Shown here in pieces: positions 8,260-57,794 of a stretch of DNA of 64,000 nucleotides (its first letter is position 1; the number at the start of each line of letters is the position of its first letter). The stretch comes from Sedimentisphaerales bacterium. Lineage in GTDB: Bacteria > Planctomycetota > Phycisphaerae > Sedimentisphaerales > Anaerobacaceae. Where the stretch lies: positions 3,614-67,613 of the forward strand of contig CAXXXG010000008.1 of assembly GCA_963662565.2 (NCBI GenBank). The letters run 5' to 3'. The notes beneath the pieces are model-generated. The model did no database searches. It saw nothing but the letters and a program-made list of their open reading frames with translations, and had not been told where the DNA came from. Position numbers and translations under genes: made by a program.

Positions 8260-8274
8260 TGTTGTTCAGATTCT

Positions 8275-10841: not shown

Positions 10842-12583
10842 GATTTCACCTCGGTAAATTCATGGGCTAGTGCCTTGGCCATGCCATGGAAAAAGGCAGG
10901 TGCGCCACGGCGCAGATTGCGTAGGCTGTATCCCCCCTCCTGGACCACCAGTGTCGGCAAACGTAGGTCGCCGATCCGCTGGCCTATTTGACGCAGAGAT
11001 GTGGCCGTGAGGACGAACGAACCGGTGGGGTCGCCCTTCATGGTGTCGAATCCGATGCAGACCACCAGGAAGGTGGGTGCGAAGCGGACGATTTGTTTGA
11101 GGGCCTTGTCCAGGGTCTGGAGATAGAGCGTTTCGTCGGTGTTCTCGGGCAAGGGAAAATTCACATTAAATCCTGCACCCGACCCTTGACCGGTTTCGTC
11201 GCTGAACCCACTGAAATACGGATACGAATGGTTGGGGTGGCCGTGAATGCTGATCGTCAGCACGTCGGAGCGTTCGTAGAAGATGTCCTGGGCTCCATTG
11301 CCGTGGTGATAGTCAATGTCGAGCATAGCGACCTTGCCCTGGGCGCTGAGATAGTGCGCGGCAATGGCGGCGTTGTTGAAGTAACAAAATCCGCCGAAGG
11401 TGCGTCGCTCGGCATGGTGACCGGGCGGGCGGCACAGACTGTAGGCCACGCGTCGACCGTGCAGCATTTCCTCGGCCCCGGTCAGGGCGATATCCACGGC
11501 CTGGCGGGCGGCCTGGTAGGCGTTGCGGTCCAGGGGCGTGAAGGTGTCGATGCAGTAGTAACCCGCACGCACGGCCAGTTCCTTGGGCCGTCGCTCGGGC
11601 CGCCGAATGGGAAATACGTAGGGATAGACCGGACCCTTGTCACTGAGTTTTTCGCAGACCACTTTCAGGTAGGTCACGAAATCGCCGGCATGGACGTGTC
11701 GCAGGTGGTCCTCGCCATAGTGACGGGGCTTGATGGGATCGAACAGACCCGTGGGCTGCAAGGCCTGTTCCAGGGCTCCGACCCGAGCGGGTCGTTCCAC
11801 GTAGCCACGATCCTTAACGTGATGGATCGTGTGCAGATCGCCCGAGACCAGGGCAAAGGCCTTGACCCGATGGTCCTTGTGTTGAGTGGGTGACTCGGCA
11901 GTGTGGTAGCGCGGATCGCGGAGCCGGACCGGATTCTCGATCACGCTCTCGACAACCCGCTCGATATAGTCGGGCGGGACGATGTGGCCATACTTACGCT
12001 TGAGGATGATCCGCATGGCCGCGCGACACTCGGATCGCTTTAATGGCTTGCCACTGCCCAGATCGTCGTAAAGCAAATACGGAGCCGGATCGTCGTCGAT
12101 GGGGGTCTCGAATTCGGTGTTGATGATGGGACGCAGACCGTACTGTTCATAGAAGGCCAGATGTTTCTGGTTTTCCTTTAACAGCTTGGCGTCCTTAACG
12201 ACCTCAGGGTCGTCAGGCAACACCTCCATGTAGAGCCCGCGAGAGCCCTGGCTTTTGAGGTATTCCTGGGTGGCCTCGAACAAGGCGCTGCCGATCCCGC
12301 GTCCACGTCGCTCCCCGATTGTGGCCAGGAAGTCCAGCAGGCTGCTATTGATCTCCGGGAAGTGAATCACCAGAGAAAAGCCGGTGACCTTACCCAGCGA
12401 GGTCTCGCTGACCAGCAGGATGGTCCGGTAGCCAAACTTGAAGGGATGGTCCAGCAATTCGGGGATCTTGTCCGCATAGTCGGCCACGGCCCCAAAGTTA
12501 CGTCGGAAGATGTCCTGGGTCTGGCGGATGCGTTCCCGATCGATGGGAAGAACCGTACCATAGACCCGTTGAATCAGAATCAT
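10838..12583 (-). CDS. GNAT acetyltransferase fused to an HDAC/acetylpolyamine-amidohydrolase-type deacetylase
   Basis: N-terminal GNAT: ATIGERRGRGIGSALFEA. C-terminal Zn-deacetylase motifs: CRPPGHHAE, MLDIDYHHGNGAQDIF, GFDTMKGDP, VQEGGY. Confidence 0.85.
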   Translation of the reverse strand: MILIQRVYGTVLPIDRERIRQTQDIFRRNFGAVADYADKIPELLDHPFKFGYRTILLVSETSLGKVTGFSLVIHFPEINSSLLDFLATIGERRGRGIGSALFEATQEYLKSQGSRGLYMEVLPDDPEVVKDAKLLKENQKHLAFYEQYGLRPIINTEFETPIDDDPAPYLLYDDLGSGKPLKRSECRAAMRIILKRKYGHIVPPDYIERVVESVIENPVRLRDPRYHTAESPTQHKDHRVKAFALVSGDLHTIHHVKDRGYVERPARVGALEQALQPTGLFDPIKPRHYGEDHLRHVHAGDFVTYLKVVCEKLSDKGPVYPYVFPIRRPERRPKELAVRAGYYCIDTFTPLDRNAYQAARQAVDIALTGAEEMLHGRRVAYSLCRPPGHHAERRTFGGFCYFNNAAIAAHYLSAQGKVAMLDIDYHHGNGAQDIFYERSDVLTISIHGHPNHSYPYFSGFSDETGQGSGAGFNVNFPLPENTDETLYLQTLDKALKQIVRFAPTFLVVCIGFDTMKGDPTGSFVLTATSLRQIGQRIGDLRLPTLVVQEGGYSLRNLRRGAPAFFHGMAKALAHEFTEVKS

Positions 12584-13932
12584 TCGTAGGCCTCTGTGTC
12601 ATTGTCCGGGCCGCAGCAGGCACGGCGTCGATCCAGACGCACGGCCCGGTCGGGCTGGATGTGACTGTGGGCTCCGGAGGCCACATGCCAGACGCTGGGG
12701 GCGGCACCCTCGGCGGGGCTGACTATGGGGTCTTCGAAGCGGCTATGCGGTTCGGGGTAGGCGATCAGCATGCCTTCGTAGTTGCGAAGGACCGTGTGCG
12801 TGGGACTCTGGGACACCACGTAGGTCGGCAGCACGGGAATCTTTCCGCCGCCGTGCGGGGCATCGACCACAAAGGTCGGGATGGCCAGACCGCCCACGCG
12901 GCCGCGCAGGTATTCCATGATCTCCATACCCTTGGTAACGGGAGTACGGAAGTGCTCCACACCCCGAACCAGGTCACACTGGTAAAGGTAATAGGGACGC
13001 ACCCGCATACGGACCAGGCTGCGGCAGAGCTGCTCCTGGATGTGCGGATGGTCGTTGACTCCCCGCAACAGGACCGACTGGTTACCCAGAGGGATGCCCG
13101 CGTCGGCCAGGCGAGTGCAGGCTTCGATCGATTCGGGGGTGATTTCGTTCGGGTGGTTGAAGTGGGTGTTGATCCAGACCGGATGGTATTGACGCAGCAT
13201 CTGACAGAGTTCGTCGGTGATGCGTTGCGGCAGGACCACGGGCATGCGCGTACCGATGCGGATAATCTGTACCGACGGAACACTCCGCAGGTGCAGTAGG
13301 ATCGTCTCCAGCTTGTCTGTGGTCATGGTCAGGGGATCGCCGCCCGAAATGATCACGTCCGAGACGTCCGGGTGCCGAGTCAGGTAGTCGACCACCTGAT
13401 TGAGTCGTTGACGGCTGATGCTGTTTTCTCGGGTTCCGGCGACGCGTTTACGCGTACAGTGACGGCAGTACATCGAACACATGGTGGTGGCGATCACCAG
13501 GGCACGGTCCCCATAACGGTGAATCAATCCCGGAACCGGCATATCGCGACATTCCTCCAGGGGATCGGAACTGAGAAACGGCGGATCGATCAGTTCGTCC
13601 AGTTGCGGAACCGCCATCTGAAACACCGGGTCGGATGGATCGGCCGATCGGATCAGGGAGGCATAGTAAGGGGTGATCGCCATGGGATACTTGCCGATGA
13701 CCGGAGACAGGTCGGAAGAGGCCTTCAGGGCGGGAAAGAGATTTAGCAGTTGCGGAACCGTTCGAATACGGCTGCGGATCTGCCAGCGCCAATCATTCCA
13801 TTCGGGATGACGTACGGGGGCGGGGATCAAAGTCGAAGACTGGAGGCAGACCGGTGGAGGTTCGTCGTCGGCACTTGTCCGCGCGACCGACGTCAGTACG
13901 GGATTACCTCCTTTCTGGAAATTATGATTCAT
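12580..13932 (-). CDS. KamA-family radical-SAM lysine 2,3-aminomutase (paralogue 1)
   Basis: [12 protein letters not shown] radical-SAM cluster, [45 protein letters not shown]. Has N- and C-terminal extensions. Confidence 0.9.
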   Translation of the reverse strand: MNHNFQKGGNPVLTSVARTSADDEPPPVCLQSSTLIPAPVRHPEWNDWRWQIRSRIRTVPQLLNLFPALKASSDLSPVIGKYPMAITPYYASLIRSADPSDPVFQMAVPQLDELIDPPFLSSDPLEECRDMPVPGLIHRYGDRALVIATTMCSMYCRHCTRKRVAGTRENSISRQRLNQVVDYLTRHPDVSDVIISGGDPLTMTTDKLETILLHLRSVPSVQIIRIGTRMPVVLPQRITDELCQMLRQYHPVWINTHFNHPNEITPESIEACTRLADAGIPLGNQSVLLRGVNDHPHIQEQLCRSLVRMRVRPYYLYQCDLVRGVEHFRTPVTKGMEIMEYLRGRVGGLAIPTFVVDAPHGGGKIPVLPTYVVSQSPTHTVLRNYEGMLIAYPEPHSRFEDPIVSPAEGAAPSVWHVASGAHSHIQPDRAVRLDRRRACCGPDNDTEAYE

Positions 13933-14092
13933 GGATCAAATCCTTATCTTAAGAAAATAGAATACCGTTCGAGCAAACGCTCTCACAATGACGGGATGTA
14001 GTTCCTCTCCGAGGTTCACACCGATCGTCGGCACGAATATTCGGGATACCTGAGCACTCTCACCTTAAAGTTGTCAATCAACAATGGCTGAG

Positions 14093-14121
14093 GATATAGT
14101 ACGTTTTATTCGGCAGGTCAA
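14093..14121 (-). promoter_or_regulatory. candidate sigma-70 promoter for the kamA-side operon
   Basis: On the minus strand: TTGACC (14121-14116), 17 nt spacer, TATATC (14098-14093). Implies a leader of about 150 nt to the ATG at 13932. Confidence 0.35.
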
Positions 14122-14250: not shown

Positions 14251-14974
14251 ATGAGAACGACACTGACATTGGAAATTTTACCACAACCGGACGACACCAC
14301 CTGTGGCCCGACCTGCCTGCATGCCTTGTATCGTTACTTTGGTGAGACCGAGGATCTGTCTGAGGTCATCCGGGAGGTGCCGTCACTGCAAGGTGGGGGA
14401 ACACTGGGTGTCATGCTGGCCAATCATGCCCTGGCCCGCGGCTATCAGGCCACGATCTATACCTACAATCTGCTCATCTTCGATCCGACCTGGTTCGCCC
14501 CCGGTATTATTCTGACCGAGAAGCTGAGTCAGCGACTGGCCGTCACTCAAGACCGCAAGCAACGTCGGGCCTTGGAGGCCTATCTGCACTTCCTGGAACA
14601 AGGAGGAACCCTCTGCCTGGAGGATTTGACACGCTCGCTGTTACGTCGTTTTTTAAATAGCGGACGTCCCATCCTGACCGGGCTCAACTCGACCTTTCTC
14701 TACCGTACCATGCGGGTCTACGGCGACGACATGGTCGATGACGATATCCGTGGGGAGGTGGTCGGACACTTTGTCGTGCTCTGTGGTTACGATCGAGAAA
14801 AAAAAAACCATTCTGATTGCCGATCCCTACAGCGGCAATCCTTATTCTGCCGATCGCATGTATGAAGTTCCTATCGATCGTGTCATCGGTGCCGTTTTCC
14901 TGGGCGTAATGACCTACGATGCCAACTTTTTAATTATCGAGCCCAAGCGGCAACGAAAGGCCCTTGATTCATGA
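14251..14974 (+). pseudogene. C39-like cysteine peptidase, interrupted by a +1 frameshift in an A10 run
   Basis: DDTTCGPTCL (Cys) and GHFVVLCGYD (His). The reading frame moves from frame 1 to frame 2 at A10 (14798-14807); removing one A gives ...YDREKKTILIADPYSGNPY... The stop overlaps the next ATG (ATGA). Confidence 0.7.
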
Positions 14975-16433
14975 AAATACTGCTAGTGGTCTCTAATGCC
15001 AAAAAATGGCCCTTGAATATCCCGGACTGCGAGGTGGTTGCGGCCCGCAAGTATCTGACCGAGCCGGTCTTCTCCCATCTGACAGGTGTGCGGGTCTTCA
15101 ACCTGATGTGTCCCTGCCGTTACCAGAGCCAAGGCTACTACGTGTCCCTCTTGGCCGAGGCCCGCGGCCATAAGCCCGTGCCCAATATCACCACCCTGCG
15201 GGACCTTTACACCCCGGCCATGGTTCGTATGACCAGTGCGGCCCTGCAAGACTCCATCCAAAGCAGTTTGCAGGGCATCAAGTCGGACCGCTTCGAATTG
15301 AGTTTATACTTTGGCCGCAACCTGGCCAAGCGATACGACAAACTCTGTCGTGAGCTATTCAATCGTTTCCACGCCCATTTCCTGCGGGCCATGTTTGTGC
15401 GGGTCAAGGGACAGTGGACCCTACAGAATATCAGCCCCATCAGCATCAACGAAGTACCGGACAGTCACTACCGCTTTGTGGAAGAGGCGGCCAACGACTA
15501 CTTCACCCACGCGGGCTATCGTCAAAGGAAACTCCAAACCTTCCGCTACAGCCTGGCTATCCTGCACCAACCCGGTGAAAAGATGCCCCCTCCAATGGTG
15601 CAGCCCTCAAGAAGTTCGTCAAGGCCGGTCACAAACTGGGCCTGGACGTTCAGTTCATCACCAAGGACGACTTCGGTCGTCTGTCGGAGTTCGATGCCCT
15701 CTTCATTCGCGAGACCACTAATGTCAACAACCACACCTTCCGCTTCGCCCGTTATGCCGAGGCCGACGGTCAGGTGGTAATCGACGACCCCCAGTCCATC
15801 ATTCGCTGTGCCAATAAGGTCTTCCTGGCCGAGTTACTGGGGCATCAACGCATCGCCACGCCCGAGACCATGATCGTACACAAGGACAATGTGGACCTGA
15901 TCCGCCACACCTTGGGCCTGCCCTGCGTACTCAAGCAGCCGGACAGCAGCTTCTCCATCGGCGTCAAGAAGGTCACCGAGGCCGATGATCTGGAACACGA
16001 AGCCCTGGCCATGCTGGAGAAGTCAGAGCTGATCATCGCTCAGGCCTTTTTGCCCACCGAGTTCGACTGGCGCGTGGGCATCCTGGATCAAAAGGTCCTG
16101 TACGTCTGCCGCTATTATATGGCCGAGAATCACTGGCAGATCATCAAGCGGGATGCCAAGGGCCGCAAGGAAGAAGGCAATGCCGACACCCTGCAACTAC
16201 CGGATGTCCCGGAAGAGGTCCTCAAGATCGCCCTGCGTTCCACCGCTCCCATCGGACGTGGGCTCTATGGCGTGGACATCAAACAGGTGGGCAGCAAGTT
16301 CTACGTCATCGAGGTCAACGACAACCCCAGCATCGACGCGGGCGTGGAGGACGCGGTCCTGCAGGACGACCTCTACCAACAGATCATGGCCGTGTTCCTG
16401 CAACGCATCGAACAACGCAAGGCCGTGGTCTAA
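14971..16433 (+). pseudogene. RimK-like ATP-grasp ligase with RLAN-type N-terminal domain, interrupted by a -1 frameshift in a C5 run
   Basis: The N-terminal domain matches the RimK-like ATP-grasp N-terminal (RLAN) pattern. After ATGCCCCCTCC (15583-15593) homology continues in another frame (PSNGAALKKFVKAGHKLGLDVQFI...DALFIRETT...VVIDDPQSIIRCANKVFL...IEVNDNPSID). Confidence 0.75.
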
Positions 16434-16445
16434 GGATCCTTCAGC

Positions 16446-17669
16446 ATGAGCAAAACATCACTCCACCTCTTCGAAGGCTACGGCCTGGAACTGGAATACA
16501 TGATTGTGGACCGCGATACCTTTGAGGTACGCCCCATCGCCGACTGGCTACTGGCCCAAGTCGGCCCCCAGGGTACCCGCGAGGTAGAACAGGGGCAACT
16601 GTGCTGGTCCAACGAACTGGCCCTGCATGTCATCGAACTCAAGGGCAACGGCCCGGTGGCGGACATGACAACCCTGGCCGACCCTCTACAGCGTGACATT
16701 GCCCGTATGAACGAGCTGCTGGCCGCCCAGGGGGCCTGCTTGATGGGCTCGGCCGTACACCCCTGGATGGATCCCGATGCCGACTCTCGCCTGTGGCCCT
16801 TTGAGGATGCCCCGATTTACCAGGCTCTGGACCGCATCTTCGGTTGTCACGGTCACGGCTGGTTCAACCTGCAATCGGCCCACCTGAATCTGCCCTTTGC
16901 CAATGACGAGGAATTCGCCCGCCTGCATGCGGCCATTCGCCTGGTGCTGCCGATCATTCCGGCCCTGGCTGCGGCCTCGCCGTTTTTGGATGGGGTTGAC
17001 ACCGGCCTGTGGGACGCCCGTCTGCATGTCTACAGCCAGCACTGCAACCGCCTGCCTGCGGCCATTGGCAAGGTCATTCCCGAGCCAGTCTCCAGCGAGC
17101 AGGAATACCAGGACACCATCCTGGAGCCGCTGTATCAATTGCTGCGTCCGCTGGATAAAGAAGGCACCCTCTGTTACGAATGGAGCAATGCCCGTGGTGC
17201 CATCGCCCGCTTCGAACGTAACGCCATCGAAGTCCGCCTGATCGACGTGCAGGAACATCCCGGCATGGATCAGGCCGTGGTCGGGGCGGTGGCAGCGGCC
17301 ATCCGCCTGCTGACCGATCAGGCTTGCCAGGACAAGGACGCCATGAACGCTCTGTCCTGTGTGCGTTTGCGCAAGATCCTGGACGAAGCTATTGCCTGGG
17401 GCGAACAGGCCCAGGTTACTGACGATGATTTTTTGCGTCTTTTGTGTGGTTCGGATCATCCCCGGTCCGCCCAACAGGTGTGGCGGGATATGATCTACCG
17501 CTGCTCGGATTTTGCGGGTCCGGCCCGTGCAGGGGTTGAACAACTCCTTACACAGGGGACCCTGGCGACGCGATTGCGTCAGGTCACTGGCCCGGTCACC
17601 GGGGAGTCCTTGCACAGGACCGCACAGCGATTATGTCAGGCCTTGGCACGTGGGGAAATGTTGGTGTAG
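16446..17669 (+). CDS. GCS2-family carboxylate-amine ligase (glutamate-cysteine ligase family 2 / YbdK-like)
   Basis: GLELEYMIVD, ELALHVIELK, GMGSAVHPW and HLNLPF pattern of the GCS2 family. 407 aa. Confidence 0.7.
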   Translation: MSKTSLHLFEGYGLELEYMIVDRDTFEVRPIADWLLAQVGPQGTREVEQGQLCWSNELALHVIELKGNGPVADMTTLADPLQRDIARMNELLAAQGACLMGSAVHPWMDPDADSRLWPFEDAPIYQALDRIFGCHGHGWFNLQSAHLNLPFANDEEFARLHAAIRLVLPIIPALAAASPFLDGVDTGLWDARLHVYSQHCNRLPAAIGKVIPEPVSSEQEYQDTILEPLYQLLRPLDKEGTLCYEWSNARGAIARFERNAIEVRLIDVQEHPGMDQAVVGAVAAAIRLLTDQACQDKDAMNALSCVRLRKILDEAIAWGEQAQVTDDDFLRLLCGSDHPRSAQQVWRDMIYRCSDFAGPARAGVEQLLTQGTLATRLRQVTGPVTGESLHRTAQRLCQALARGEMLV

Positions 17670-17710
17670 TGTCACGACCGTGGCATAACTCTCCGTCGGA
17701 GTGAACAAGC

Positions 17711-18217
17711 ATGTCTTGGAAATGGATTTGGGATATCAGCCCACTGGATTACCACTCGATCCTCTGTGTCGTAGCCGGCGCCGCCTTTGTCGGTCTCGAA
17801 CGCCAACTGATGGGGAAACCTATTGGTATCCGTACCAGTTCACTGATCAGTTTTGGAACCTATATTTTTGTGGCGATGGCACAGTCGATCATCAGTGAGC
17901 AAATGGACCCATCCCGTATCATCGGCCAAATCATCACAGGGATCGGCTTTTTGGGTGCGGGTGTAATGTTTTCCCAGAATGGATCCGTGCAAGGCGTCAC
18001 ATCGGCAGCGGCGATTTGGATCTTGGCGGCAATCGGTGCCGTTGGCGGGCTGGGATATCCCCATCTCAGTGTGAAGATCGGAATTCTGGCTGTTTTATTG
18101 TTGGTGGGGATCGAAAAGGTCGAAAGAACCTTCACCTTTATGCAGCGTGGTGTGCATCGTCGAGTGCAGCAGTATCGGGACAGATCTCCCGATAAAGCGA
18201 AACAGGCAAACAAATAA
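17711..18217 (+). CDS. MgtC/SapB-family membrane protein
   Basis: GAAFVGLERQLMGKPIGIRTSSLISFGT, ITGIGFLGAGVMF, AAAIWILAAIGAVGGLG. Confidence 0.8.
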   Translation: MSWKWIWDISPLDYHSILCVVAGAAFVGLERQLMGKPIGIRTSSLISFGTYIFVAMAQSIISEQMDPSRIIGQIITGIGFLGAGVMFSQNGSVQGVTSAAAIWILAAIGAVGGLGYPHLSVKIGILAVLLLVGIEKVERTFTFMQRGVHRRVQQYRDRSPDKAKQANK

Positions 18218-18228
18218 GGTAGACATCC

Positions 18229-19017
18229 ATGGAAACGACAGAAGTCCTCTGGACATTAACCGAACAAGAGGGCCCCATTGTGGCCTGTGCCATTCATGAG
18301 GGTCACGACGTCCGACCCGAGGTTGCCATAGGCTTGGCTCTCCATGAAGATGACCGTCTGCGTGAAGAAGATCCCTATAGCGGCGAATGGACCGCTGTGG
18401 GGGACACTCGACTGGTCGTGCATCGTTCACGCTTTGAAATGGATCTCAACCGCCCGCGCGAGCGGGCCGTGTATATCGAGCCGGCCGACGCCTGGGGGCT
18501 GACCGTCTGGCAACAGCGTCCGCCGCAGGCATTGATCGATCGATCGCTGGCCCAGTACGACGATTTTTATGCCATGCTAGGGGACCTGCTCGTTCGCAAA
18601 CAAAAAGAGCATTCTCGACTGGTGGTCCTGGATCTGCACACGTATAATCACCACCGCTTGGGACCGGAGCAGCCCTTTGACGATCCGGCCCTGAATCCCG
18701 AGATCAATGTAGGCACCGACACCATGGACCGGTCGCGTTGGACCCCGCTGGTGGAGCGTTTCATGCAGGACCTGCGTGAGTACGATTTCATGGGACGGTC
18801 CCTGGATGTCCGAGAGAACGTAAAATTCGGTGGCGGTTGGATGAGCCAGTGGATCCACGATCACTTCGGCGAACAGATATGCGTGCTGTCCGTGGAGTTC
18901 AAAAAGACCTTCATGGACGAGTGGACCGGCCAACTCTATCCGGATCTATTGGCAGCCTTTCACTGTGCTCTGGTGGCAACCCTGCCGGGCCTACGAGAAA
19001 GTTTGAAGTCATTGTGA
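18229..19017 (+). CDS. N-formylglutamate amidohydrolase (FGase)-family hydrolase
   Basis: AIHEGH, RSRFEMDLNR, VVLDLHTYNH and SVEFKK resemble the FGase family layout. Confidence 0.65.
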   Translation: METTEVLWTLTEQEGPIVACAIHEGHDVRPEVAIGLALHEDDRLREEDPYSGEWTAVGDTRLVVHRSRFEMDLNRPRERAVYIEPADAWGLTVWQQRPPQALIDRSLAQYDDFYAMLGDLLVRKQKEHSRLVVLDLHTYNHHRLGPEQPFDDPALNPEINVGTDTMDRSRWTPLVERFMQDLREYDFMGRSLDVRENVKFGGGWMSQWIHDHFGEQICVLSVEFKKTFMDEWTGQLYPDLLAAFHCALVATLPGLRESLKSL

Positions 19018-20930
19018 AAAACAATAACTCAATAGAAACCATCACCTCCTATCAGGTGGCCAAGGTCATTGAGCGGTTGTCCGAGGGTAAGCGTATTCGT
19101 CGCAGCTTACCCCGTTCGGGACGGGTGCATATCGATCGTACGCTGCCGTTCATTGTGGTCTGCCGTACAGGCCCACAGGGTTCGGATACCCATACCGCCC
19201 GTTTGGTGCGGGGTGAGGCCTCGTATCTGGTGGCGGCCGGTGACACCGACTTCTATCCGGGCCTCAACAACCTGGTATCCCACGTGGTTGCAACCCTGTC
19301 CAATGAGTGCGCCTCGTTCCTGGTCATCGAAATCTGGGCCGGATCACAAACATCGACCCAACCGATGGCGGATGGCGGGATCGAACCACCGGCATTTTGT
19401 ATCCATGTGCCCAAGAACGATCCGCCCACCCGCACAGTGGAGACGTTGGAGCGATCCTTGCAACGCATCAAGATACTACGTCGAGGTGCGAATGTATGTG
19501 TTGAAACCGTCGAGCAGCCGGCCCCACCTGGGCTCAAACCGTTGCTCTCGGCCAAGGAGGCCCGCCTGCGCAACTGTTTCATGGTGGGTCTGGAGATCCA
19601 GCCTATCTATTGGGATACCGAGACCGGCCAACCCTATCCCCTGGTCCTGCGTAGTCTACACCGTAGTTTGTCTGTGGCCTTCAAGCGGGCGGCCTTTGAG
19701 TTTGCCCGTTTGCGTACACCACGTCGTCCCGCCAACTACCAGGCCCTGGGGCGACGGGCCTTTGTCAAGGCGGTCTGGCAGGTGGACCAGCAACTGGCCC
19801 GCATCAGCCAGTCCTTCGACTATCTCCTATTGGTGACGCCGATCAACGCTGACGCAGCCTGGAAGCGTTTTCACCAGAACAAACATGACAAGAATCCGGT
19901 CTTCTACTATCGCCCTTTGCCCATCGATCCGTCCCTGGTCAAACGGCGGCTCTACCAGGTGCCCATCGAACGTATCGAGGATCCGACCCTGGCCTCGGTC
20001 TTTCGCGAGAAACGCTGTGAGCTGGACCGCATGATCAATCTGTTGACCGAGCGGGGCAAGCCTTCGTTTGTGTACAGCAGCCAGCAACTCTTCGGCGGGG
20101 TTCGCGACGAGTTGCTGACCCTGGCCCGACGTATCCTGGCCAAGGTCTCGCCGCGGGCGCGAGAGGACAAAGGGGGGCCCATGCTGGACGCCCGGGCCTT
20201 TGCTCAACGCGTGCGTGCGGAGTTCGATTATTACCGCAATCAAAGATGCGACATCGATCCTAAGGTTTCCGTTCGTGACGATGTCAGTGGTGTGTTGGTT
20301 TCGCAGGGGCAATTGCTCGTGGGCAGCGGTTTCAAGGTGGCGGCCTCGCGGGTTGAGGGGCTACTTCAACACGAGGTGGGCACGCATGTTTTGACCTATC
20401 TCAATGCCCAGGCCCAGCCCTTTCAACTGCTCTGTTACGGCCTGGCCGGATACGAGCCCTTGCAGGAAGGACTCGCCGTACTGGCCGAATACCTGGTGGG
20501 CGACCTGGGACGCGGACGGTTACGTCTGCTGGCCGGCCGCGTGGTGGCCGTGCATGCCCTAGTGTCCGGAGCGGCCTTTGTAGAGGCCTTTAGGCTGCTG
20601 CACAAGGAGCATGGCTTCAAGCTGCAAACCGCCTTCAATATCACCATGCGGGTCTATCGCGGCGGCGGGCTGACCAAGGATGCAGTGTATTTACAGGGGC
20701 TTGCCTCTCTGCTAGACTACCTCCAAGACGGTGGTGATCTGAATTTGCTCTGGGTGGGCAAAATCGCTGCGGACCATACCTCCATAATGCGGGAGCTGAT
20801 GAGCCGTGAGGTCCTGATTCCTGCACCCCTGCATCCCCGTTATCTGGAATTTGAATCGGCCCAGGCACGCCTGGCAAAAGTGAAGTCAGGCGCAACGCCT
20901 TTGGATCTTATCGAAGGGAAAAGAAAATGA
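19014..20930 (+). CDS. DUF1704 / QEGLA-motif protein, MATCAP-like metallopeptidase
   Basis: HEVGTH (HExxxH) at 20370-20387 and QEGLA at 20463-20477. Start set at GTG 19014, overlapping the upstream stop (GTGA). The ORF is open from 18837 but that part overlaps the FGase gene. Confidence 0.75.
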   Translation: MKNNNSIETITSYQVAKVIERLSEGKRIRRSLPRSGRVHIDRTLPFIVVCRTGPQGSDTHTARLVRGEASYLVAAGDTDFYPGLNNLVSHVVATLSNECASFLVIEIWAGSQTSTQPMADGGIEPPAFCIHVPKNDPPTRTVETLERSLQRIKILRRGANVCVETVEQPAPPGLKPLLSAKEARLRNCFMVGLEIQPIYWDTETGQPYPLVLRSLHRSLSVAFKRAAFEFARLRTPRRPANYQALGRRAFVKAVWQVDQQLARISQSFDYLLLVTPINADAAWKRFHQNKHDKNPVFYYRPLPIDPSLVKRRLYQVPIERIEDPTLASVFREKRCELDRMINLLTERGKPSFVYSSQQLFGGVRDELLTLARRILAKVSPRAREDKGGPMLDARAFAQRVRAEFDYYRNQRCDIDPKVSVRDDVSGVLVSQGQLLVGSGFKVAASRVEGLLQHEVGTHVLTYLNAQAQPFQLLCYGLAGYEPLQEGLAVLAEYLVGDLGRGRLRLLAGRVVAVHALVSGAAFVEAFRLLHKEHGFKLQTAFNITMRVYRGGGLTKDAVYLQGLASLLDYLQDGGDLNLLWVGKIAADHTSIMRELMSREVLIPAPLHPRYLEFESAQARLAKVKSGATPLDLIEGKRK

Positions 20931-21973
20931 AATTAGGATTTCTGGTCAACGACATACAGACCGAACAGGCCGGTTACACCACCACGCGTCTGGCCATGAC
21001 CGCCATCAACCGTGGACACGAGGTGTGGATCATTGGAGCAGGCGACTTTGCCTACAGTGTGGACGAACACATCCATGCTCGCGCCTACCGCGCACCTAAA
21101 TCCAAGTACAGCAACAATAAGACCTACCTGGCCGATTTGCAGGGCCCCAAGGCCAAGCGAGAATGGATCGTGGTCGATGACCTGGACGTTCTCATGCTCC
21201 GCAACGACCCCTCGGCCGACACCGGTGTACGCTCCTGGGCCCAGACCGCGGGGATCATCTTCGGTCGGGCCGCTATGCGGGCCGGGGTCATCGTGCTCAA
21301 CGATCCCGACGGTCTGGCCAAGGCCATGAACAAGATGTACTTCCAGCTCTTCCCTGAAGAGGTCCGCCCCCGCACCATCATCACCCGCGATCGCGATGAG
21401 ATCCGTCGCTTTGCCAAGGAAGAAGGTGGCCACATCATCCTCAAGCCCCTGCAGGGTTCGGGCGGTACAGGCGTGTTCATGGTACGTAAGGACGATCTAT
21501 CCAATATCAACCAGATGGTCGAGGCCGTCAGCCACTACGGCTACGTCATCGCCCAGGAATACCTGCCCGCCGCGGCCGAGGGGGACATCCGTCTGTTCCT
21601 CATGAACGGCCAACCCCTCCGCTACAAAGGCAAATATGCCGCCTTCCGGCGCGTACGTTCCAGCGAAGACATCCGCAGCAACATCCACGCCGGCGGCAAG
21701 CTCGCCCCGGCCGTGATCACCAAAGAACACCTCGACGTCGTGGAAATGGTTCGTCCCAAACTCGTGCAGGACGGCATGTTCCTCGTCGGCCTCGATATCG
21801 TCGGTGACAAGCTCATGGAAATCAACGTCTTCAGCCCTGGTGGCCTCGGCAGCGCCCAAAACTTCGAAAAAGTCAACTTCTGTCACCCCGTCATCGACGC
21901 CCTGGAAAAAAAGGTCGAGTACATGAAGTACTATCGCCGCAACTTCGACAATGTCGAAATGGCGATGCTTTGA
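20927..21973 (+). CDS. glutathione-synthase-like (GshB-type) ATP-grasp ligase
   Basis: MKLGFLVNDI...RLAMTAINRGHEVW N-terminal domain, ILKPLQGSGGTGVF, AQEYLP, EINVFSPGG. ATGA overlap with the upstream gene. Confidence 0.8.
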   Translation: MKLGFLVNDIQTEQAGYTTTRLAMTAINRGHEVWIIGAGDFAYSVDEHIHARAYRAPKSKYSNNKTYLADLQGPKAKREWIVVDDLDVLMLRNDPSADTGVRSWAQTAGIIFGRAAMRAGVIVLNDPDGLAKAMNKMYFQLFPEEVRPRTIITRDRDEIRRFAKEEGGHIILKPLQGSGGTGVFMVRKDDLSNINQMVEAVSHYGYVIAQEYLPAAAEGDIRLFLMNGQPLRYKGKYAAFRRVRSSEDIRSNIHAGGKLAPAVITKEHLDVVEMVRPKLVQDGMFLVGLDIVGDKLMEINVFSPGGLGSAQNFEKVNFCHPVIDALEKKVEYMKYYRRNFDNVEMAML

Positions 21974-22120
21974 GAACCCCGCTCAGACGCCGCGGGGGCT
22001 TATAAAAAGAAATCGGGGAAAATGTGACAATTTGTTGAGTTAATTTGTATAAATAGACTTTTAAAGAAATCGCTTCGTTGCTTAGGGTATAGGAGATTCC
22101 CAAATTCCATTCTACATGAC

Positions 22121-22636
22121 TCAACGATTCCATGACGTGTTAAAATCTAGGCGTCTTATTAATTCGAAAGTGTTAATGCTGTTAATTCCTAAAGAAGCAC
22201 AAACATCAGGGACATGTTTATTGGCTCCTTGCCTACTAGGTTTTGATGCCTCTTCTGTGACAATGCACCGATTTTTGACATCCAACAGTGCATAAGAAAT
22301 TAAGAAAGGATCCCGCCCCATTTTTGCAATGTCGTCATCAGTTGGATTGGGCAAATAGCCGTTGTATACTACATGAGAGACAAATTGAGACTCAGCCTCT
22401 TCCTTTAATCGTAAAGCATCCTTCACTTCCGTTGTCGCTGCCCAGGCGGCAAGTTCATCTTGTTCTCCTTGCTTAGATTTAGTGTCCTTAAATTCTTCGT
22501 AAATCTCAATCGGAATGGCTATATTTTCACGCTGTCCTTGGTATATTAACCATTCCCAAAATTCCGGCACACGAGAAAGTGGATAGTACCAATTTTTGGC
22601 ATTAATTAATACATTGGCATCCAGTAAATAAAGCAA
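22121..22636 (-). CDS. DUF4411-family PIN-like nuclease
   Basis: N-terminus MLYLLDANVLINAKNWYYP...VPEFWEWL is characteristic of DUF4411. Lies in an AT-rich region. Confidence 0.7.
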   Translation of the reverse strand: MLYLLDANVLINAKNWYYPLSRVPEFWEWLIYQGQRENIAIPIEIYEEFKDTKSKQGEQDELAAWAATTEVKDALRLKEEAESQFVSHVVYNGYLPNPTDDDIAKMGRDPFLISYALLDVKNRCIVTEEASKPSRQGANKHVPDVCASLGINSINTFELIRRLDFNTSWNR

Positions 22637-22647
22637 TGCAGGCTTCC

Positions 22648-23841
22648 CTATACGGCATTACTAAGTTCAAAAATCTTATGTACTTTCAAGGGCCTTACGC
22701 CAAGTAGAAAACCAGCTCTAGTAGGGGTAAGAACACCCGACGAAGTCATTCTTTCTGTAAATCGAATTAAGGCTTCTCCAAGACTGTGTCTACGTACAAC
22801 AAAATAGCTTGGGCCGCCCTCTTTTTGTTTCTTTTGATTTCTCGTTTTGTCGCGATAATCAAACCACTGTTTGTCGAAATGCTCATTTAGAGTCAACCAT
22901 AAATCATGGGTGACTATCCCCTTTCTGTATAGGCGATAGGAAACAAGAGCACTACTTACGTTTTTATCTCTTGCAAAACTTGTTATAACTTCCGTTAAAG
23001 CAATAAACTCCACGTTGCCGCTAAATTTGAGATTTCTGAGTTCATTCTCGGGAAGCAAGATTTGGCTTGCTACGTCACTGCAAAATTTTTCGACCTTCTT
23101 TTCTGTTTTAGCCCCGCTGACACCGGTTTGCCCTAGCCACAGATGTGCGATTTCATGCAAAAGAGTAAAAGACCATGCAGCTTTAGAGTCTAAATCGTTG
23201 ATAACAACAAAAGGTGCAATCTCGTCAGATAATACAAATCCTCGGAATATCGACGTGCTAATATTGGTATGATGAGATCCGAGATTGCCTATTAGGAGAA
23301 CAAAGATCCCCACATCTTCTGCCAGGGCCCGCAAATACTTAAAGGCATCATGCGTTGTTTGGCATTGTTGATATGTGTTTAAATCAAATTTTATCGATTC
23401 GCAAATAGAAGATGCCACTTGAGAAACGCCTTGTTTGATATCTGCACAGCCAATGAATTCTAACCTTTGTTCTTCATCTTCCTCAATCAGTGTTTCCCTT
23501 AGGAGACTCTGGCGTGCTTTGATGTCTCTGATTAGTACATCTACATAGGCATTTTCGGTTGGGACAACATTGACAGGTAGGGTGCGAAAATCTTCACCTC
23601 TGTCACCCCGTAGCGGTTGTTCTTCCATATATAAAGTCAAGAGGGGCTTTTTATAGAGCTTCGCCATTTTTACAAGCAACGACCGGGAAGGATCTTTTTC
23701 CTGGCTTTCAAAAGCTAGCAATTTATCAACCGCACTGATTGTTTTGCTATCTGTGAGTTGAAGCTTTATGGAGGCTTCTTCGACAGACAATCCTGCAGAT
23801 TTTCTCGCCCAAATCAATATTTTGGGATTCACATTAGGCAT
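22648..23841 (-). CDS. XRE-type HTH fused to an ImmA/IrrE (COG2856) zinc metallopeptidase
   Basis: N-terminal HTH (ILIWARKSAGLSVEEASIKL) and HEIAHLWL HExxH motif. Lies 11 nt upstream of the DUF4411 gene. Confidence 0.75.
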   Translation of the reverse strand: MPNVNPKILIWARKSAGLSVEEASIKLQLTDSKTISAVDKLLAFESQEKDPSRSLLVKMAKLYKKPLLTLYMEEQPLRGDRGEDFRTLPVNVVPTENAYVDVLIRDIKARQSLLRETLIEEDEEQRLEFIGCADIKQGVSQVASSICESIKFDLNTYQQCQTTHDAFKYLRALAEDVGIFVLLIGNLGSHHTNISTSIFRGFVLSDEIAPFVVINDLDSKAAWSFTLLHEIAHLWLGQTGVSGAKTEKKVEKFCSDVASQILLPENELRNLKFSGNVEFIALTEVITSFARDKNVSSALVSYRLYRKGIVTHDLWLTLNEHFDKQWFDYRDKTRNQKKQKEGGPSYFVVRRHSLGEALIRFTERMTSSGVLTPTRAGFLLGVRPLKVHKIFELSNAV

Positions 23842-24135
23842 ACATTACTCAGTCCAACAAACACGACCACCACTCACAGTACCTTCTCTTGCCACTCTCT
23901 AGTGTAACCCAAAAAGGTAATCTTATAAAATACTACCATACGTTTTTTCGGACAAGTTAACAGATATTAGCCAGGCATTTCTGGCAAAGATACAGTTTAT
24001 ATCTACAAGTCAGTAAAAACACACAAAATATAACCACTGACGGCTCTGAAGAAGGGCTAGACCTTAAAAAAAGTTAGCGGTATAGACTTAAGCCCTTTTG
24101 AGCTTTAAAAATGCCAAGGCTTCCCGGATCAAACC

Positions 24136-24414
24136 TCAGATAAAGGCAGCAGGTGAGACTCTGAATCGCTGGCTGATGGTTTTGATGTGGGCTTTGCTCA
24201 ATGAGCGTTGTCTGTTGAGAATGCGTGATCCGAGGGAGCGATCTCCTAAGAGACGTCCAAGATCGGAGGCGGTCATTTCATTGGCCTCCAGGAGGAATTT
24301 TAGATTTTCGATGGGATCATGGTCCACCTGGATGGGGTAGACTTGGGATTCGTAAATGCTAATAATGCCACTTTTGTTCATAGTATGTCGATGTTTCGCC
24401 GACTTACTATGCAA
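24136..24414 (-). CDS. HigA-like antitoxin HTH protein, short/orphan
   Basis: ...LLEANEMTASDLGRLLGDRSLGSRILNRQRSLSKAHIKTISQRFRVSPAAFI matches the C-terminal HTH of the HigA family. The N-terminal part is short and no toxin ORF lies next to it. Confidence 0.6.
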   Translation of the reverse strand: MHSKSAKHRHTMNKSGIISIYESQVYPIQVDHDPIENLKFLLEANEMTASDLGRLLGDRSLGSRILNRQRSLSKAHIKTISQRFRVSPAAFI

Positions 24415-24633
24415 AAATCTGATGTAAACTCAACGGTCAAAATTACCACCCTAAAAGACGGGGTGTTCCATCTCTGCACAGTCATGCCTTCGGGCTTCTG
24501 CCGTTTAGGTCACCCGCTCCTGCCGTAAATGCCTTAACAACCGATCCGATAGAGGCTTACACAAAACAGCTATGCCATGGCACAACAATTGCAATTGATC
24601 AATCTTAAGAGTAATTGAAAGGTACTTCACATT

Positions 24634-27365: not shown

Positions 27366-27370
27366 GGATC

Positions 27371-27387
27371 TGTGCATAAAATGCACA
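27371..27387. promoter_or_regulatory. perfect palindrome TGTGCAT-aaa-ATGCACA, candidate enhancer (UAS) for the adjacent sigma-54 activator
   Basis: 7-bp arms with a 3-bp spacer, about 150 bp upstream of the sigma-54 promoter at 27525-27540 and immediately after the activator's stop codon. Confidence 0.4.
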
Positions 27388-27524
27388 CAAATGGCAATCC
27401 AGGAAAGCTTGCGCCTCAAACCTGCACACTCTTAACTCTATGCGAATCAAACACTTAGACTTTATCTATCACTAGCCCACCCTAAACACAAACCACACAT
27501 AGACTTATAATTATTTCTTATCTT

Positions 27525-27540
27525 TGGCATCACCCTTGCT
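27525..27540 (+). promoter_or_regulatory. sigma-54 (-24/-12) promoter
   Basis: TGGCAT-caccc-TTGCT matches the consensus TGGCAC-N5-TTGCW with correct GG/GC spacing. Lies about 65 nt upstream of the small HTH gene and the abl operon. Confidence 0.65.
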
Positions 27541-27603
27541 TGAATACAGGCCTTGGGTATTACCCCTGAAACTATGGATGTTTTAGTCAAAGGAGAAACG
27601 ATT

Positions 27604-27816
27604 ATGAGTAAAGCCAGACGCACCAAACGCCGCTCACGTACCCGACAGGCCTGGTCCAAGGACGAGATCAAGACCCTCAAAAAGATCTTTCGCAACATGA
27701 CGACCATCGATGTGGCCTATGAAATGGGACGCACTGTCGGTAGTGTTCAGGGCAAGGCCAGCGTACTGGGACTCACCAAGACTCGTAAACATATGAAGGC
27801 CATTGGAAAGGCCTGA
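27604..27816 (+). CDS. small basic SANT/Myb- or GcrA-N-like HTH protein (70 aa)
   Basis: AAAGGAG sits 8 nt before ATG 27604. [14 protein letters not shown]...[23 protein letters not shown] resembles the GcrA N-terminal / Myb-like DNA-binding fold. Confidence 0.55.
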
Positions 27817-57751: not shown

Positions 57752-57794
57752 ACAGAAAGGATGGCGTTCCATCCTATTCCCAATGATCACATAT

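What the first reader, a model, noticed from the sequence alone, without database searches (positions are those of the whole stretch)
14251..21973. RLAN-RimK / GCS2 / FGase / DUF1704 / GshB-like / MgtC / C39-like operon: a predicted but uncharacterised peptide-ligation and trimming module
Seven co-directional, mostly overlapping genes combine three ligase types with three hydrolases and MgtC.
- Ligases: RimK-like (RimK itself adds C-terminal glutamates to ribosomal protein S6), GCS2 (gamma-glutamyl-type carboxylate-amine ligase) and GshB-like (adds an amino acid to a gamma-glutamyl dipeptide).
- Hydrolases: C39-like Cys peptidase, FGase-like N-acyl-glutamate amidohydrolase and DUF1704 metallopeptidase.

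To my recollection, comparative-genomics work on ATP-grasp amidoligases has flagged RLAN-RimK and GCS2/FGase/DUF1704 neighbourhoods as likely peptide-metabolite or peptide-tag systems. I know of no experimentally defined product or substrate.
Basis: partly seen in the sequence, partly recalled or inferred. Interest (0 to 1): 0.72.

Follow-up and report, generated by a model that had tools for sequence, protein, structure and literature searches.

The report
Two fused peptide ligase–hydrolase cassettes
A real seven-gene operon turns out to be two widespread but uncharacterised "build-and-trim" peptide cassettes joined in one strain. One of the two is strongly linked in other genomes to magnesium transporters and mechanosensitive channels, which gives a testable lead to its function.

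Summary
The seven co-directional genes exist at 14251-21973. The true order is C39-like, RLAN-RimK, GCS2, MgtC, FGase, DUF1704 (now Pfam MATCAP / TIGR02421 QEGLA), GshB-like.

Two genes carry 1-nt indels in runs of A. A 99%-identical strain has both genes intact, so these are probably assembly errors.

The seven genes are not one conserved unit. They are two conserved cassettes:
- A: C39-like, RLAN-RimK, GCS2, often followed by an FGase. C39-like and GCS2 were each found in 68 of 83 metagenome loci.
- B: FGase, long DUF1704, GshB-like. FGase was found in 71 and the GshB-like gene in 74 of 80 genome loci, across more than 15 phyla.

No other locus examined fuses A and B. FGase is the family shared by both.

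GCS2 and the GshB-like gene sit in different cassettes. The GshB-like protein also misses the GshB equivalog cut-offs, so ordinary glutathione synthesis is unlikely.

Cassette B is enriched next to MgtE, CorA, CNNM and MscS genes: 41 of 81 loci against 6 of 83 cassette-A loci.

My best reading is ATP-driven assembly and hydrolytic trimming of a small acidic glutamyl peptide, tied to ion or osmotic homeostasis. The product is unknown, and editing of a protein C-terminal tail remains a serious rival.

The parts
14071..14100 (+). Sigma-70-like promoter match (TTGTCA-18-TATAGT) in the 318-bp divergent intergenic region upstream of the operon
   Evidence: 10 of 12 matches. This is a consensus match only, not shown to be functional.
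14251..14974 (+). C39-like papain-fold cysteine peptidase. It is 240 aa once one A is removed from the A10 run at 14798-14807. First gene of cassette A.
   Evidence: Pfam PF13529, 28.6 bits. Intact 240-aa gene in L083. Q12, C18, H173 and D191 are >=95% conserved in 61 relatives. Found upstream of RLAN-RimK in 68 of 83 loci.
14971..16433 (+). RLAN-RimK ATP-grasp ligase, 487 aa. The window lacks one A at about 15578 relative to L083.
   Evidence: PF14401 at 146 bits plus PF08443. P0121 is 99% identical and intact. The ATP-grasp part matches solved RimK structures 7qyr, 4iwx and 3vpd.
16446..17669 (+). GCS2-family carboxylate-amine ligase, 407 aa. Third gene of cassette A.
   Evidence: PF04107, 99 bits. 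Below the YbdK and gshA equivalog cut-offs. Follows RLAN-RimK in 68 of 83 loci.
17711..18217 (+). MgtC-family membrane protein, 168 aa, inserted between the two cassettes
   Evidence: PF02308, 96 bits. All 17 substitutions against L083 are at third codon positions. MgtC is also found near cassette A or B in L061, L084/85, L093, L132 and L168.
18229..19017 (+). FGase-family amidohydrolase, 262 aa, of the cassette-B subtype. This is the family shared by both cassettes.
   Evidence: PF05013, 75 bits. Scores 401 bits on the B-type HMM. Precedes DUF1704 in 71 of 80 loci.
19014..20930 (+). Long-form DUF1704/MATCAP/QEGLA metallocarboxypeptidase-like protein, 638 aa. It has an N-terminal alpha/beta domain (residues 1-240) and a C-terminal HExxxH domain (H453, E454, H458; QEGLA at 484-488).
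   Evidence: PF08014 at 297 bits; TIGR02421 at 343.8 bits against a cut-off of 338.65. The profile matches human MATCAP 7z5g at E 4e-8 across the HExxxH motif. AF2 models have pLDDT 83 and 86. The N-domain is confined to this architecture.
20927..21973 (+). GshB-like ATP-grasp ligase, 348 aa. Last gene of cassette B.
   Evidence: NF009110 at 487.6 bits (cut-off 408), but TIGR01380 at 198.9 (cut-off 299) and NF003573 at 217.6 (cut-off 272). Closest solved structure is E. coli GshB 1gsa, E 3e-37. Follows DUF1704 in 74 of 80 loci.

Best explanation
The operon is a strain-specific fusion of two independent, widely conserved ligase-plus-hydrolase cassettes.

Shown:
- Cassette A is C39-like peptidase, RLAN-RimK, GCS2 and usually an FGase.
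- Cassette B is FGase, long DUF1704 (MATCAP-type HExxxH carboxypeptidase) and a GshB-like ligase.
- Here they are joined through a single FGase, with MgtC in between.
- Cassette B lies next to Mg2+ channels and exporters (MgtE, CorA, CNNM/CorC) and MscS channels far more often than cassette A does.

Inferred mechanism:
- Each cassette pairs ATP-dependent amide-bond formation with enzymes able to undo it. Together they run a regulated build-and-trim cycle on a small glutamate-containing acidic peptide.
- In cassette B, the GshB-like ligase adds an amino acid to the C-terminal carboxylate of an N-acyl- or gamma-linked glutamyl acceptor.
- DUF1704 removes that C-terminal residue.
- FGase cleaves the remaining N-acyl-glutamate bond.
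- This resembles the N-acetyl-aspartyl-glutamate cycle (RimK-like ligase, metallocarboxypeptidase, acylase). That comparison rests on my own knowledge.
- In cassette A, GCS2 makes a gamma-glutamyl-amine bond and RLAN-RimK extends it with alpha-glutamate. The Cys peptidase and FGase take the product apart.

Proposed role: interconverting free amino acid anions and a less osmotically active, cation-binding peptide. This would buffer cytoplasmic Mg2+/K+ and osmolarity. In the fused operon the two cassettes would act on one shared peptide pool.
For: - Families and catalytic motifs are intact.
- Cassette conservation: cassette B in about 71-74 of 80 loci from more than 15 phyla. Cassette A in 68 of 83 loci, with an FGase following GCS2 in 30 of 47 loci long enough to judge.
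- FGase subtypes are interchangeable: a B-type FGase sits in the A cassette of L084.
- No conserved precursor or small ORF sits next to either cassette. That fits a metabolite substrate.
- GCS2, GshB and FGase are small-molecule enzyme families (established knowledge).
- Ion-transport context: MgtE/CorA/CNNM occur in 30 of 81 B loci against 1 of 83 A loci (Fisher p 5e-10). MscS occurs in 29 of 81 against 5 of 83 (p 2e-6).
- A CNNM-MscS-MgtE_N/CBS-MgtE block recurs beside the triad in distant phyla. In L049, FGase-DUF1704-GshBx3-MscS-CorA-CNNM-CCC are co-directional.
- An MscS-family channel directly follows the pair in the closest relative, L002.
- The adjacent GshB-like and QEGLA genes of Photobacterium damselae are 38- and 27-fold higher at 1% than at 3% NaCl (PMC10308900).
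- The window's divergent neighbours are an AblA-like aminomutase and an OsmY-like BON protein.
- Substitutions against L083 are mostly synonymous-position.
Against: - No product, substrate or phenotype is known. Every enzymatic step is inferred from family membership.
- All characterised MATCAP-family enzymes, and RimK itself, act on protein C-terminal tails (PMC10499314; established knowledge of RimK).
- Cassette B contains no enzyme to make the proposed acceptor.
- Gene neighbourhood shows association with ion transport, not mechanism.
- The transporter enrichment uses cassette-A flanks as the control, not random genomic windows.
- No Mg2+ riboswitch was found in the window or in six loci.
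- The A+B fusion is seen only in this strain lineage, so joint function of the two cassettes is weakly grounded.
Confidence: 0.4

Rival explanations
1. Protein C-terminal tail editing. The ligases (RLAN-RimK, GshB-like, GCS2) add glutamate or other residues to the C-terminus or side chains of a protein encoded elsewhere (ribosomal protein S6 or another acidic-tailed protein). The peptidases (DUF1704, C39-like, FGase) trim them. This would be a bacterial counterpart of RimK/RimB on S6 and of the eukaryotic TTL/MATCAP tubulin cycle.
For: - The DUF1704 C-domain matches human MATCAP, including HExxxH.
- MATCAP/TMCP enzymes remove C-terminal Tyr and Glu from acidic tubulin tails (PMC10499314).
- RimK glutamylates S6, and a protease trims that tail in Pseudomonas (titles and abstracts of PMC11957791 and PMC4741518).
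- The consistent ligase-carboxypeptidase pairing in cassette B mirrors TTL-MATCAP.
- P. damselae rimK is co-induced 52-fold with the pair.
Against: - No candidate substrate gene is conserved beside either cassette.
- FGase, GCS2 and GshB relatives are metabolite enzymes.
- RLAN-RimK scores below the rimK_fam and S6-ligase cut-offs: 58 against 143 bits, and 30 against 331 bits.
- The link to four unrelated transporter families suggests a physiological connection rather than one specific protein target.
Confidence: 0.25
2. Fortuitous juxtaposition. The two cassettes and MgtC landed next to each other in this lineage without working together, and the operon may be decaying, given its frameshifts.
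For: - The fusion is absent from all 160+ other loci examined, including DUF1704 relatives at 62-69% identity.
- There are two frameshifts in the window.
- In L167 the GshB-like gene is truncated.
Against: - Junctions are 4-bp overlaps or gaps of 41 bp or less, with no internal terminator above chance.
- The same arrangement is kept in two diverged strains, at 99% and 96.8% identity.
- Every gene is intact in at least one strain, and the indels lie in homopolymers.
- Substitutions are concentrated at third codon positions.
- Both cassettes normally carry an FGase, and here they share one.
Confidence: 0.15
3. Ordinary glutathione (or close analogue) biosynthesis: GCS2 acts as gshA and the GshB-like protein as gshB, with the other genes incidental.
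For: - GCS2 and GSH-S domains are present.
- The closest solved structure is E. coli GshB.
- By eye (not tool-verified), residues I recall as E. coli GshB Arg86, Arg210, Arg225 and Arg233 appear kept.
Against: - The two ligases belong to different cassettes that occur independently in 160+ loci.
- The GshB-like protein is below both GshB equivalog cut-offs, and GCS2 is below all gshA/YbdK cut-offs.
- Each ligase is consistently paired with hydrolases.
- Cassette B has tandem GshB-like paralogues (L013, L038, L049, L067, L074).
Confidence: 0.04

Closest known systems
Eukaryotic tubulin tyrosination cycle: TTL (ATP-grasp ligase) plus MATCAP/TMCP1-2 (PF08014 carboxypeptidases)
   Same: The metallopeptidase family is the same, with the HExxxH motif (H453, E454, H458) and an (Q/E)EGLA motif aligned to human MATCAP 7z5g. 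It is paired with an ATP-grasp amino-acid ligase, so addition and removal at a C-terminal carboxylate are both encoded.
   Different: The bacterial ligase is GshB-like, not TTL-family. The peptidase carries an extra conserved N-terminal alpha/beta domain of 240 aa. An FGase amidohydrolase is a third constant partner. There is no tubulin-like substrate. Whether the substrate is a protein at all is unknown.
RimK (with RimA/RimB) glutamylation of ribosomal protein S6
   Same: It has a RimK-type ATP-grasp domain. The ligase is encoded with a peptidase that could trim its product, as RimB does (abstract of PMC11957791).
   Different: It has an N-terminal RLAN domain. It scores far below the rimK_fam and S6-ligase cut-offs. 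Its partners are a C39-like Cys peptidase, GCS2 and FGase, not a retropepsin and a c-di-GMP phosphodiesterase. The substrate is unknown.
Glutathione biosynthesis (GshA/GCS2 plus GshB)
   Same: The domain families are the same. The closest solved structure of the last gene is E. coli GshB.
   Different: The two ligases are in separate conserved cassettes. Both miss the equivalog cut-offs. Each is tied to hydrolases.
N-acetyl-aspartyl-glutamate / beta-citrylglutamate metabolism (RIMKLA/B ligases, GCPII/III carboxypeptidases, aspartoacylase); own knowledge, not tested here
   Same: The logic is the same as in cassette B: an ATP-grasp ligase makes an N-acyl acidic dipeptide, a metallocarboxypeptidase removes the C-terminal residue, and an acylase splits the N-acyl amino acid.
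   Different: The hydrolase families are unrelated (M28 and aspartoacylase against PF08014 and PF05013). The comparison is an analogy only.
Predicted amidoligase operons of Iyer, Abhiman, Burroughs and Aravind 2009 (Mol Biosyst 5:1636)
   Same: Operons linking ATP-grasp and COOH-NH2 (GCS2-type) ligases with peptidases were predicted to make peptide metabolites or tags. The general statement is confirmed through PMC4431377.
   Different: The paper itself could not be read. I cannot say whether it describes the two-cassette structure, the shared FGase, the MATCAP identity of DUF1704 or the Mg2+/MscS neighbourhood.

Membership tests
MATCAP / DUF1704 (PF08014; TIGR02421 QEGLA) | Profile match above the curated cut-offs | tested here: met
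   PF08014 at 297.5 bits (cut-off 27). TIGR02421 at 343.8 bits (cut-off 338.65).
MATCAP / DUF1704 (PF08014; TIGR02421 QEGLA) | HExxxH zinc/catalytic motif and downstream (Q/E)EGLA motif | tested here: met
   H453, E454 and H458 are invariant, and QEGLA 484-488 is invariant apart from L487 (I or V in four sequences), in 21 sequences. They align to the LRHEIGTH and EEGLA motifs of 7z5g.
MATCAP / DUF1704 (PF08014; TIGR02421 QEGLA) | Structural match to solved MATCAP | tested here: inconclusive
   The sequence profile hits 7z5g at E 4e-8. Foldseek with the full-length model did not list MATCAP among its top hits; only weak M32 carboxypeptidase hits appeared.
MATCAP / DUF1704 (PF08014; TIGR02421 QEGLA) | Carboxypeptidase activity on acidic protein tails | not testable with these tools
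   Needs biochemistry.
Glutathione synthase GshB | Equivalog-level profile score | tested here: not met
   TIGR01380 at 198.9 bits (cut-off 299.05). NF003573 at 217.6 bits (cut-off 272). It passes only subfamily NF009110 at 487.6 bits (cut-off 408).
Glutathione synthase GshB | Functional pairing with a glutamate-cysteine ligase | tested here: not met
   In 80 genome loci the GshB-like gene travels with DUF1704 and FGase and never with GCS2.
RimK (S6 alpha-L-glutamate ligase) | RimK-type ATP-grasp domain | tested here: met
   PF08443 at 38 bits (cut-off 21). PDB RimK hits at E 3.5e-9 to 1e-7.
RimK (S6 alpha-L-glutamate ligase) | Family or equivalog cut-off (TIGR00768; NF007764) | tested here: not met
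   58.2 bits (cut-off 143.4) and 30.5 bits (cut-off 331).
RLAN-RimK subfamily (PF14401 plus PF08443) | N-terminal RLAN domain fused to the ATP-grasp domain | tested here: met
   PF14401 at 146.4 bits, covering the full model 1-150. The architecture is shared by all 120 listed homologues.
Peptidase C39 (bacteriocin-processing) | Papain-like Q/C/H/D catalytic set | tested here: met
   Q12, C18, H173 and D191 are >=95% conserved. PF13529 at 28.6 bits (cut-off 24).
Peptidase C39 (bacteriocin-processing) | Fusion to, or adjacency with, an ABC exporter and a double-glycine leader peptide gene | tested here: not met
   The protein is a standalone 240-aa gene. No ABC transporter or conserved small ORF was found in 83 loci.
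FGase (PF05013) | Profile match above cut-off | tested here: met
   74.7 bits (cut-off 28.9). N-formylglutamate specificity was not tested.
GCS2 / YbdK carboxylate-amine ligase | Pfam domain match, and YbdK/gshA family cut-offs | tested here: inconclusive
   PF04107 at 99.1 bits (cut-off 21) is met. TIGR02050 at 59.7 bits (cut-off 176.4) and all gshA equivalogs are not met.
MgtC | Profile match above cut-off | tested here: met
   PF02308 at 96.4 bits (cut-off 31.4). Below the Salmonella MgtC equivalog cut-offs.

The most novel reading that the evidence does not exclude
The FGase-DUF1704-GshB-like triad may be a prokaryotic counterpart, possibly the evolutionary source, of the eukaryotic ligase/MATCAP C-terminal tagging cycle. 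On this reading it reversibly adds and removes residues on an acidic protein tail or peptide in response to Mg2+ or osmotic state. In this strain it would be coupled to a RimK/GCS2 module to form a multi-step C-terminal editing machine.
Probability: 0.15. Interest if true: 0.85.

Novelty: new variant of a known kind. Interest (0 to 1): 0.6.

Why it matters
Both cassettes are very widespread. RLAN-RimK gave more than 8000 hits and long DUF1704 more than 2600, across many phyla, yet neither has a known product.

Three results here make the function testable:
- The system splits into two modules with a shared FGase.
- The peptidase belongs to the family of the tubulin detyrosinase MATCAP.
- Cassette B is strongly linked to Mg2+ transporters and mechanosensitive channels.

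The triad also sits on pSymB of the genetically tractable Sinorhizobium meliloti. If the product is a cation- or osmo-buffering acidic peptide, or a reversible C-terminal tag, it would be a new element of bacterial ion homeostasis or protein modification.

Tried and rejected
- The Iyer et al. 2009 paper is not held under its PMC id or PubMed id.
- Full-text searches found no functional study. Terms tried were DUF1704 with ATP-grasp, QEGLA, TIGR02421/PF08014/PF14401/RLAN, and MATCAP with bacteria. The RLAN search returned only noise.
- The Klebsiella CfmP paper concerns TupA-like ATP-grasp enzymes and is irrelevant here.
- My guessed S. meliloti locus tags found nothing. PLSDB holds no annotation for NC_003078.1.
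- An exact-sequence look-up of the GshB-like protein found nothing.
- Rfam scans of the window and six cassette-B loci found no riboswitch such as the M-box, only three tRNAs.
- Searches for a conserved precursor or small ORF beside either cassette found only antisense shadows of the core genes.
- I tested whether the DUF1704 N-domain is an FGase-like domain. Foldseek gave its best TM-score to FGase 2q7s, but only 0.47, among many purine nucleoside phosphorylase (PNP) and MTA nucleosidase (MTAN) hits. hhalign gave E 0.026. The result is inconclusive.
- Foldseek with the full-length model did not retrieve MATCAP.
- Vibrio and Pseudoalteromonas QEGLA proteins on plasmids and chromids stand alone, so they say nothing about the triad.
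- The pseudogene reading of the frameshifts was rejected in favour of homopolymer assembly error.


Full report
**1. Observation**

The + strand between 14251 and 21973 carries seven co-directional genes.
- C39-like peptidase, 14251-14974.
- RLAN-RimK, 14971-16433.
- GCS2, 16446-17669.
- MgtC, 17711-18217.
- FGase, 18229-19017.
- DUF1704, 19014-20930.
- GshB-like, 20927-21973.

This is the true gene order; the title of the finding lists a different one. [quoted passage not shown]

Three junctions are 4-bp start/stop overlaps. The other three are gaps of 12, 41 and 11 bp. A promoter-like site lies at 14071-14100, and no convincing internal terminator was found.

**2. The frameshifts**

C39-like and RLAN-RimK are each broken by one frameshift. 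A metagenome contig from a 99.03%-identical strain (L083) differs from the window by only two gaps over 6.9 kb. The window has A10 at 14798 where L083 has A9. It has GAAAAG at 15578 where L083 has GAAAAAG. In L083 both genes are intact, at 240 and 487 aa.

A third relative (L001, 96.8% identical) has those downstream genes but carries a T-run insertion that splits DUF1704, which is intact in the window. Single-base homopolymer indels hitting different genes in different assemblies are what long-read assembly errors look like. Between strains the substitutions sit mostly at third codon positions: MgtC 17 of 17, GCS2 6 of 9. I therefore treat the operon as functional. Real mutations cannot be excluded without the reads.

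**3. What is conserved elsewhere**

*Anchoring on DUF1704.* I fetched 80 genome loci from more than 15 phyla: Chloroflexota, Ignavibacteria, Bacteroidota, Calditrichota, Planctomycetota, Acidobacteriota, Gemmatimonadota, Myxococcota, Campylobacterota, Proteobacteria and others.
- tblastn and ORF clustering show FGase immediately upstream in 71 loci and a GshB-like gene immediately downstream in 74. Most exceptions are contig ends.
- None has C39, RLAN-RimK or GCS2 within 10 kb.

*Anchoring on RLAN-RimK.* I fetched 83 further loci.
- C39-like is immediately upstream in 68 and GCS2 immediately downstream in 68.
- In 30 of the 47 loci with enough sequence after GCS2, an FGase follows. It is usually a divergent 'A-type' FGase (Pfam E 4e-25) and twice the 'B-type'.
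- None has DUF1704 or the GshB-like gene.

Even the closest DUF1704 relatives (62-69% identity; L002, L167, L168) lack cassette A.

So the seven-gene unit is a lineage-specific fusion of two conserved cassettes:
- A: C39-like, RLAN-RimK, GCS2, (FGase).
- B: FGase, DUF1704, GshB-like.

They are joined where both normally carry an FGase, and MgtC is inserted between them. The window's FGase is B-type. So is the FGase in the A cassette of L084, whose RimK is 79% identical to the window's. This suggests the two FGase types can substitute for each other. It is the best evidence that the two cassettes handle chemically related bonds.

**4. Anatomy of the proteins**

*DUF1704.*
- It starts at GTG 19014, overlapping the FGase stop.
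- All relatives in this clade are about 640 aa. Each has a conserved N-terminal domain (residues 1-240; invariant H39, D41, R42 and G67-E68-A69-S70) and a C-terminal domain with invariant H453, E454 and H458, plus the near-invariant QEGLA motif.
- The profile aligns to human MATCAP (7z5g) across the HExxxH motif, E 4e-8.
- The N-domain has no Pfam model. It occurs essentially only at the N-terminus of about 620-660-aa proteins (598 clusters at 50% identity).
- It folds confidently (pLDDT 86, pTM 0.86) into a phosphorylase/hydrolase-like alpha/beta fold. The best TM-score is to an FGase structure (2q7s, 0.47), but the evidence is weak.

*C39-like family.* It keeps a papain-type Q/C/H/D set.

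*GshB-like protein.* Its closest solved relative is E. coli GshB. It falls below both GshB equivalog cut-offs and passes only a separate subfamily model.

*RLAN-RimK and GCS2.* Both fall below their characterised-family cut-offs.

**5. Context that bears on function**

Clustering all ORFs in the fetched flanks gave no further conserved partner protein and no conserved small ORF. It did reveal a striking set of neighbours for cassette B: MscS-type channels, MgtE, an MgtE_N+CBS protein, CorA, CNNM/CorC, cation-chloride cotransporters and MgtC. Pfam confirmed these families.

With family HMMs:

| Neighbour family | Cassette-B loci | Cassette-A loci | Fisher p |
|---|---|---|---|
| MgtE/CorA/CNNM | 30 of 81 | 1 of 83 | 5e-10 |
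| MscS | 29 of 81 | 5 of 83 | 2e-6 |
| Any of these families, incl. CCC/MgtC | 41 of 81 | 10 of 83 | not computed |

- A CNNM-MscS-MgtE_N/CBS-MgtE block sits beside the triad in Ignavibacteria, Holophagae, Calditrichia, Cyclobacteriaceae and a deltaproteobacterium.
- In a Phycisphaerae locus, FGase-DUF1704-GshBx3-MscS-CorA-CNNM-CCC are co-directional.
- MgtC, the odd gene in the window's operon, fits this pattern. It recurs near one or the other cassette in six other loci.
- In Photobacterium damselae, the adjacent 'GshB' and QEGLA genes are 38- and 27-fold higher at 1% than at 3% NaCl, and rimK is 52-fold higher (PMC10308900).
- In the window, the divergently transcribed neighbours are a near-AblA lysine-2,3-aminomutase (505.7 bits against a cut-off of 525.4), a GNAT-deacetylase fusion, two Ddl-like ATP-grasp ligases and an OsmY-like BON protein. 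This set also suggests solute metabolism, but the linkage is not conserved in other loci.

**6. Mechanism**

*Shown:* there are two conserved cassettes. Each pairs ATP-dependent amide ligases with hydrolases. Cassette B is embedded in Mg2+/mechanosensitive-channel neighbourhoods.

*Inferred:* each cassette builds and trims a small glutamate-containing peptide.
- In B, the GshB-like ligase would add a residue to a C-terminal carboxylate.
- The MATCAP-type carboxypeptidase would remove that residue.
- FGase would split the remaining N-acyl-glutamate.
- The logic is that of N-acetyl-aspartyl-glutamate metabolism (own knowledge).
- In A, GCS2 and RLAN-RimK would form gamma- and alpha-glutamyl bonds. 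The Cys peptidase and FGase would reverse them.

I propose that the purpose is to buffer cytoplasmic cations and osmolarity by interconverting free amino-acid anions and an acidic peptide. I put this at about 0.4.

*Main rival (0.25):* editing of a protein C-terminal tail, as RimK/RimB do on S6 and TTL/MATCAP do on tubulin (PMC10499314). It is favoured by what is known of MATCAP and RimK. It is disfavoured by the three metabolite-type families and by the lack of any conserved substrate gene.

*Plain glutathione synthesis (0.04):* the two ligases belong to independent cassettes and miss the equivalog thresholds.

*Chance juxtaposition or decay (0.15):* tight coupling, conservation in two diverged strains and purifying selection all argue against it.

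**7. Comparison with what is known, and novelty**

No paper in the held library describes a function for bacterial DUF1704, RLAN-RimK or either cassette. A later paper from the same group confirms only that ATP-grasp and COOH-NH2 ligase operons had been noted and interpreted as successive peptide ligations (PMC4431377).

To my knowledge, and within the held literature, the following are new:
- the two-cassette dissection;
- the shared FGase;
- the fusion in this lineage;
- the family-specific N-domain of long DUF1704;
- the Mg2+-transporter/MscS neighbourhood of cassette B.

I rate this as a new variant of a known (predicted, uncharacterised) kind, with interest 0.6. The triad also lies on pSymB of Sinorhizobium meliloti and on a Shinella plasmid, which gives a tractable system for the decisive experiments.

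Noticed in passing
window 5628-13932, minus strand: A divergently transcribed cluster of further amide-bond enzymes. It comprises an AblA-like lysine-2,3-aminomutase (12580-13932; 505.7 bits against a cut-off of 525.4), a GNAT+histone-deacetylase fusion (10838-12583), a Ddl-like ATP-grasp (9798-10841), an ATP-grasp+GNAT fusion (8275-9825), an unknown 369-aa protein (7150-8259) and a six-BON OsmY-like protein (5628-7076). It could be beta-lysine-based solute or peptide metabolism. The linkage to the operon is not conserved elsewhere.
   Followed up: partly
window 26001-30687, plus strand: A second KamA-family aminomutase (27803-29266), directly followed by a sodium:solute symporter (29263-30687) and preceded by a sigma-54 response regulator (26001-27365).
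   Followed up: no
window about 21900-24500: GC content drops to 0.39-0.43 right after the operon. The low-GC stretch holds a DUF4411 protein (22121-22636, minus) and a Peptidase_M78/IrrE-like protein (22648-23841, minus). It looks like an inserted mobile or defence-type pair, and it is also present in strain L001.
   Followed up: no
L013, L038, L067, L074, L049, L019: Tandem expansions of cassette B in Planctomycetota and Verrucomicrobiota: two or three DUF1704-GshB pairs in a row, or three GshB-like paralogues after one DUF1704. This suggests several specificities or stepwise additions.
   Followed up: partly
L034, L042, L043, L044, L009, L020, L053: A recurrent four-gene block, CNNM/CorC - MscS-like (PF05552 type) - MgtE_N+CBS protein - MgtE, is conserved across distant phyla next to cassette B. 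It looks like a Mg2+-handling module in its own right.
   Followed up: partly
window 19014-19733 (DUF1704 residues 1-240): A conserved N-terminal domain without a Pfam model (invariant HIDR and GEAS motifs). It forms 598 clusters at 50% identity, almost all at the N-terminus of about 640-aa DUF1704 proteins. The fold is phosphorylase/hydrolase-like and possibly a degenerate FGase-like domain.
   Followed up: partly
L170/L171 (Sinorhizobium meliloti pSymB, NC_003078.1 about 1,123,000-1,127,000); L169 (Shinella plasmid): The FGase-QEGLA(-glutathione synthase) triad is present on megaplasmids of model rhizobia. In Shinella it sits beside nirK/nnrS, which may be the origin of the 'flavohemoglobin expression-modulating' name.
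   Followed up: partly
window 14798, 15578; L001 2703 (window 20330): Three related assemblies each carry single-base homopolymer indels in different genes of the same operon. Other apparent frameshifts in this window may likewise be assembly artefacts.
   Followed up: yes
window 54650-61183: An ECF-type sigma factor domain fused to a long CarboxypepD_reg/Big_1 protein (54650-57751, plus) lies opposite a 1033-aa BlaR1/M56 peptidase-domain protein (58082-61183, minus).
   Followed up: no
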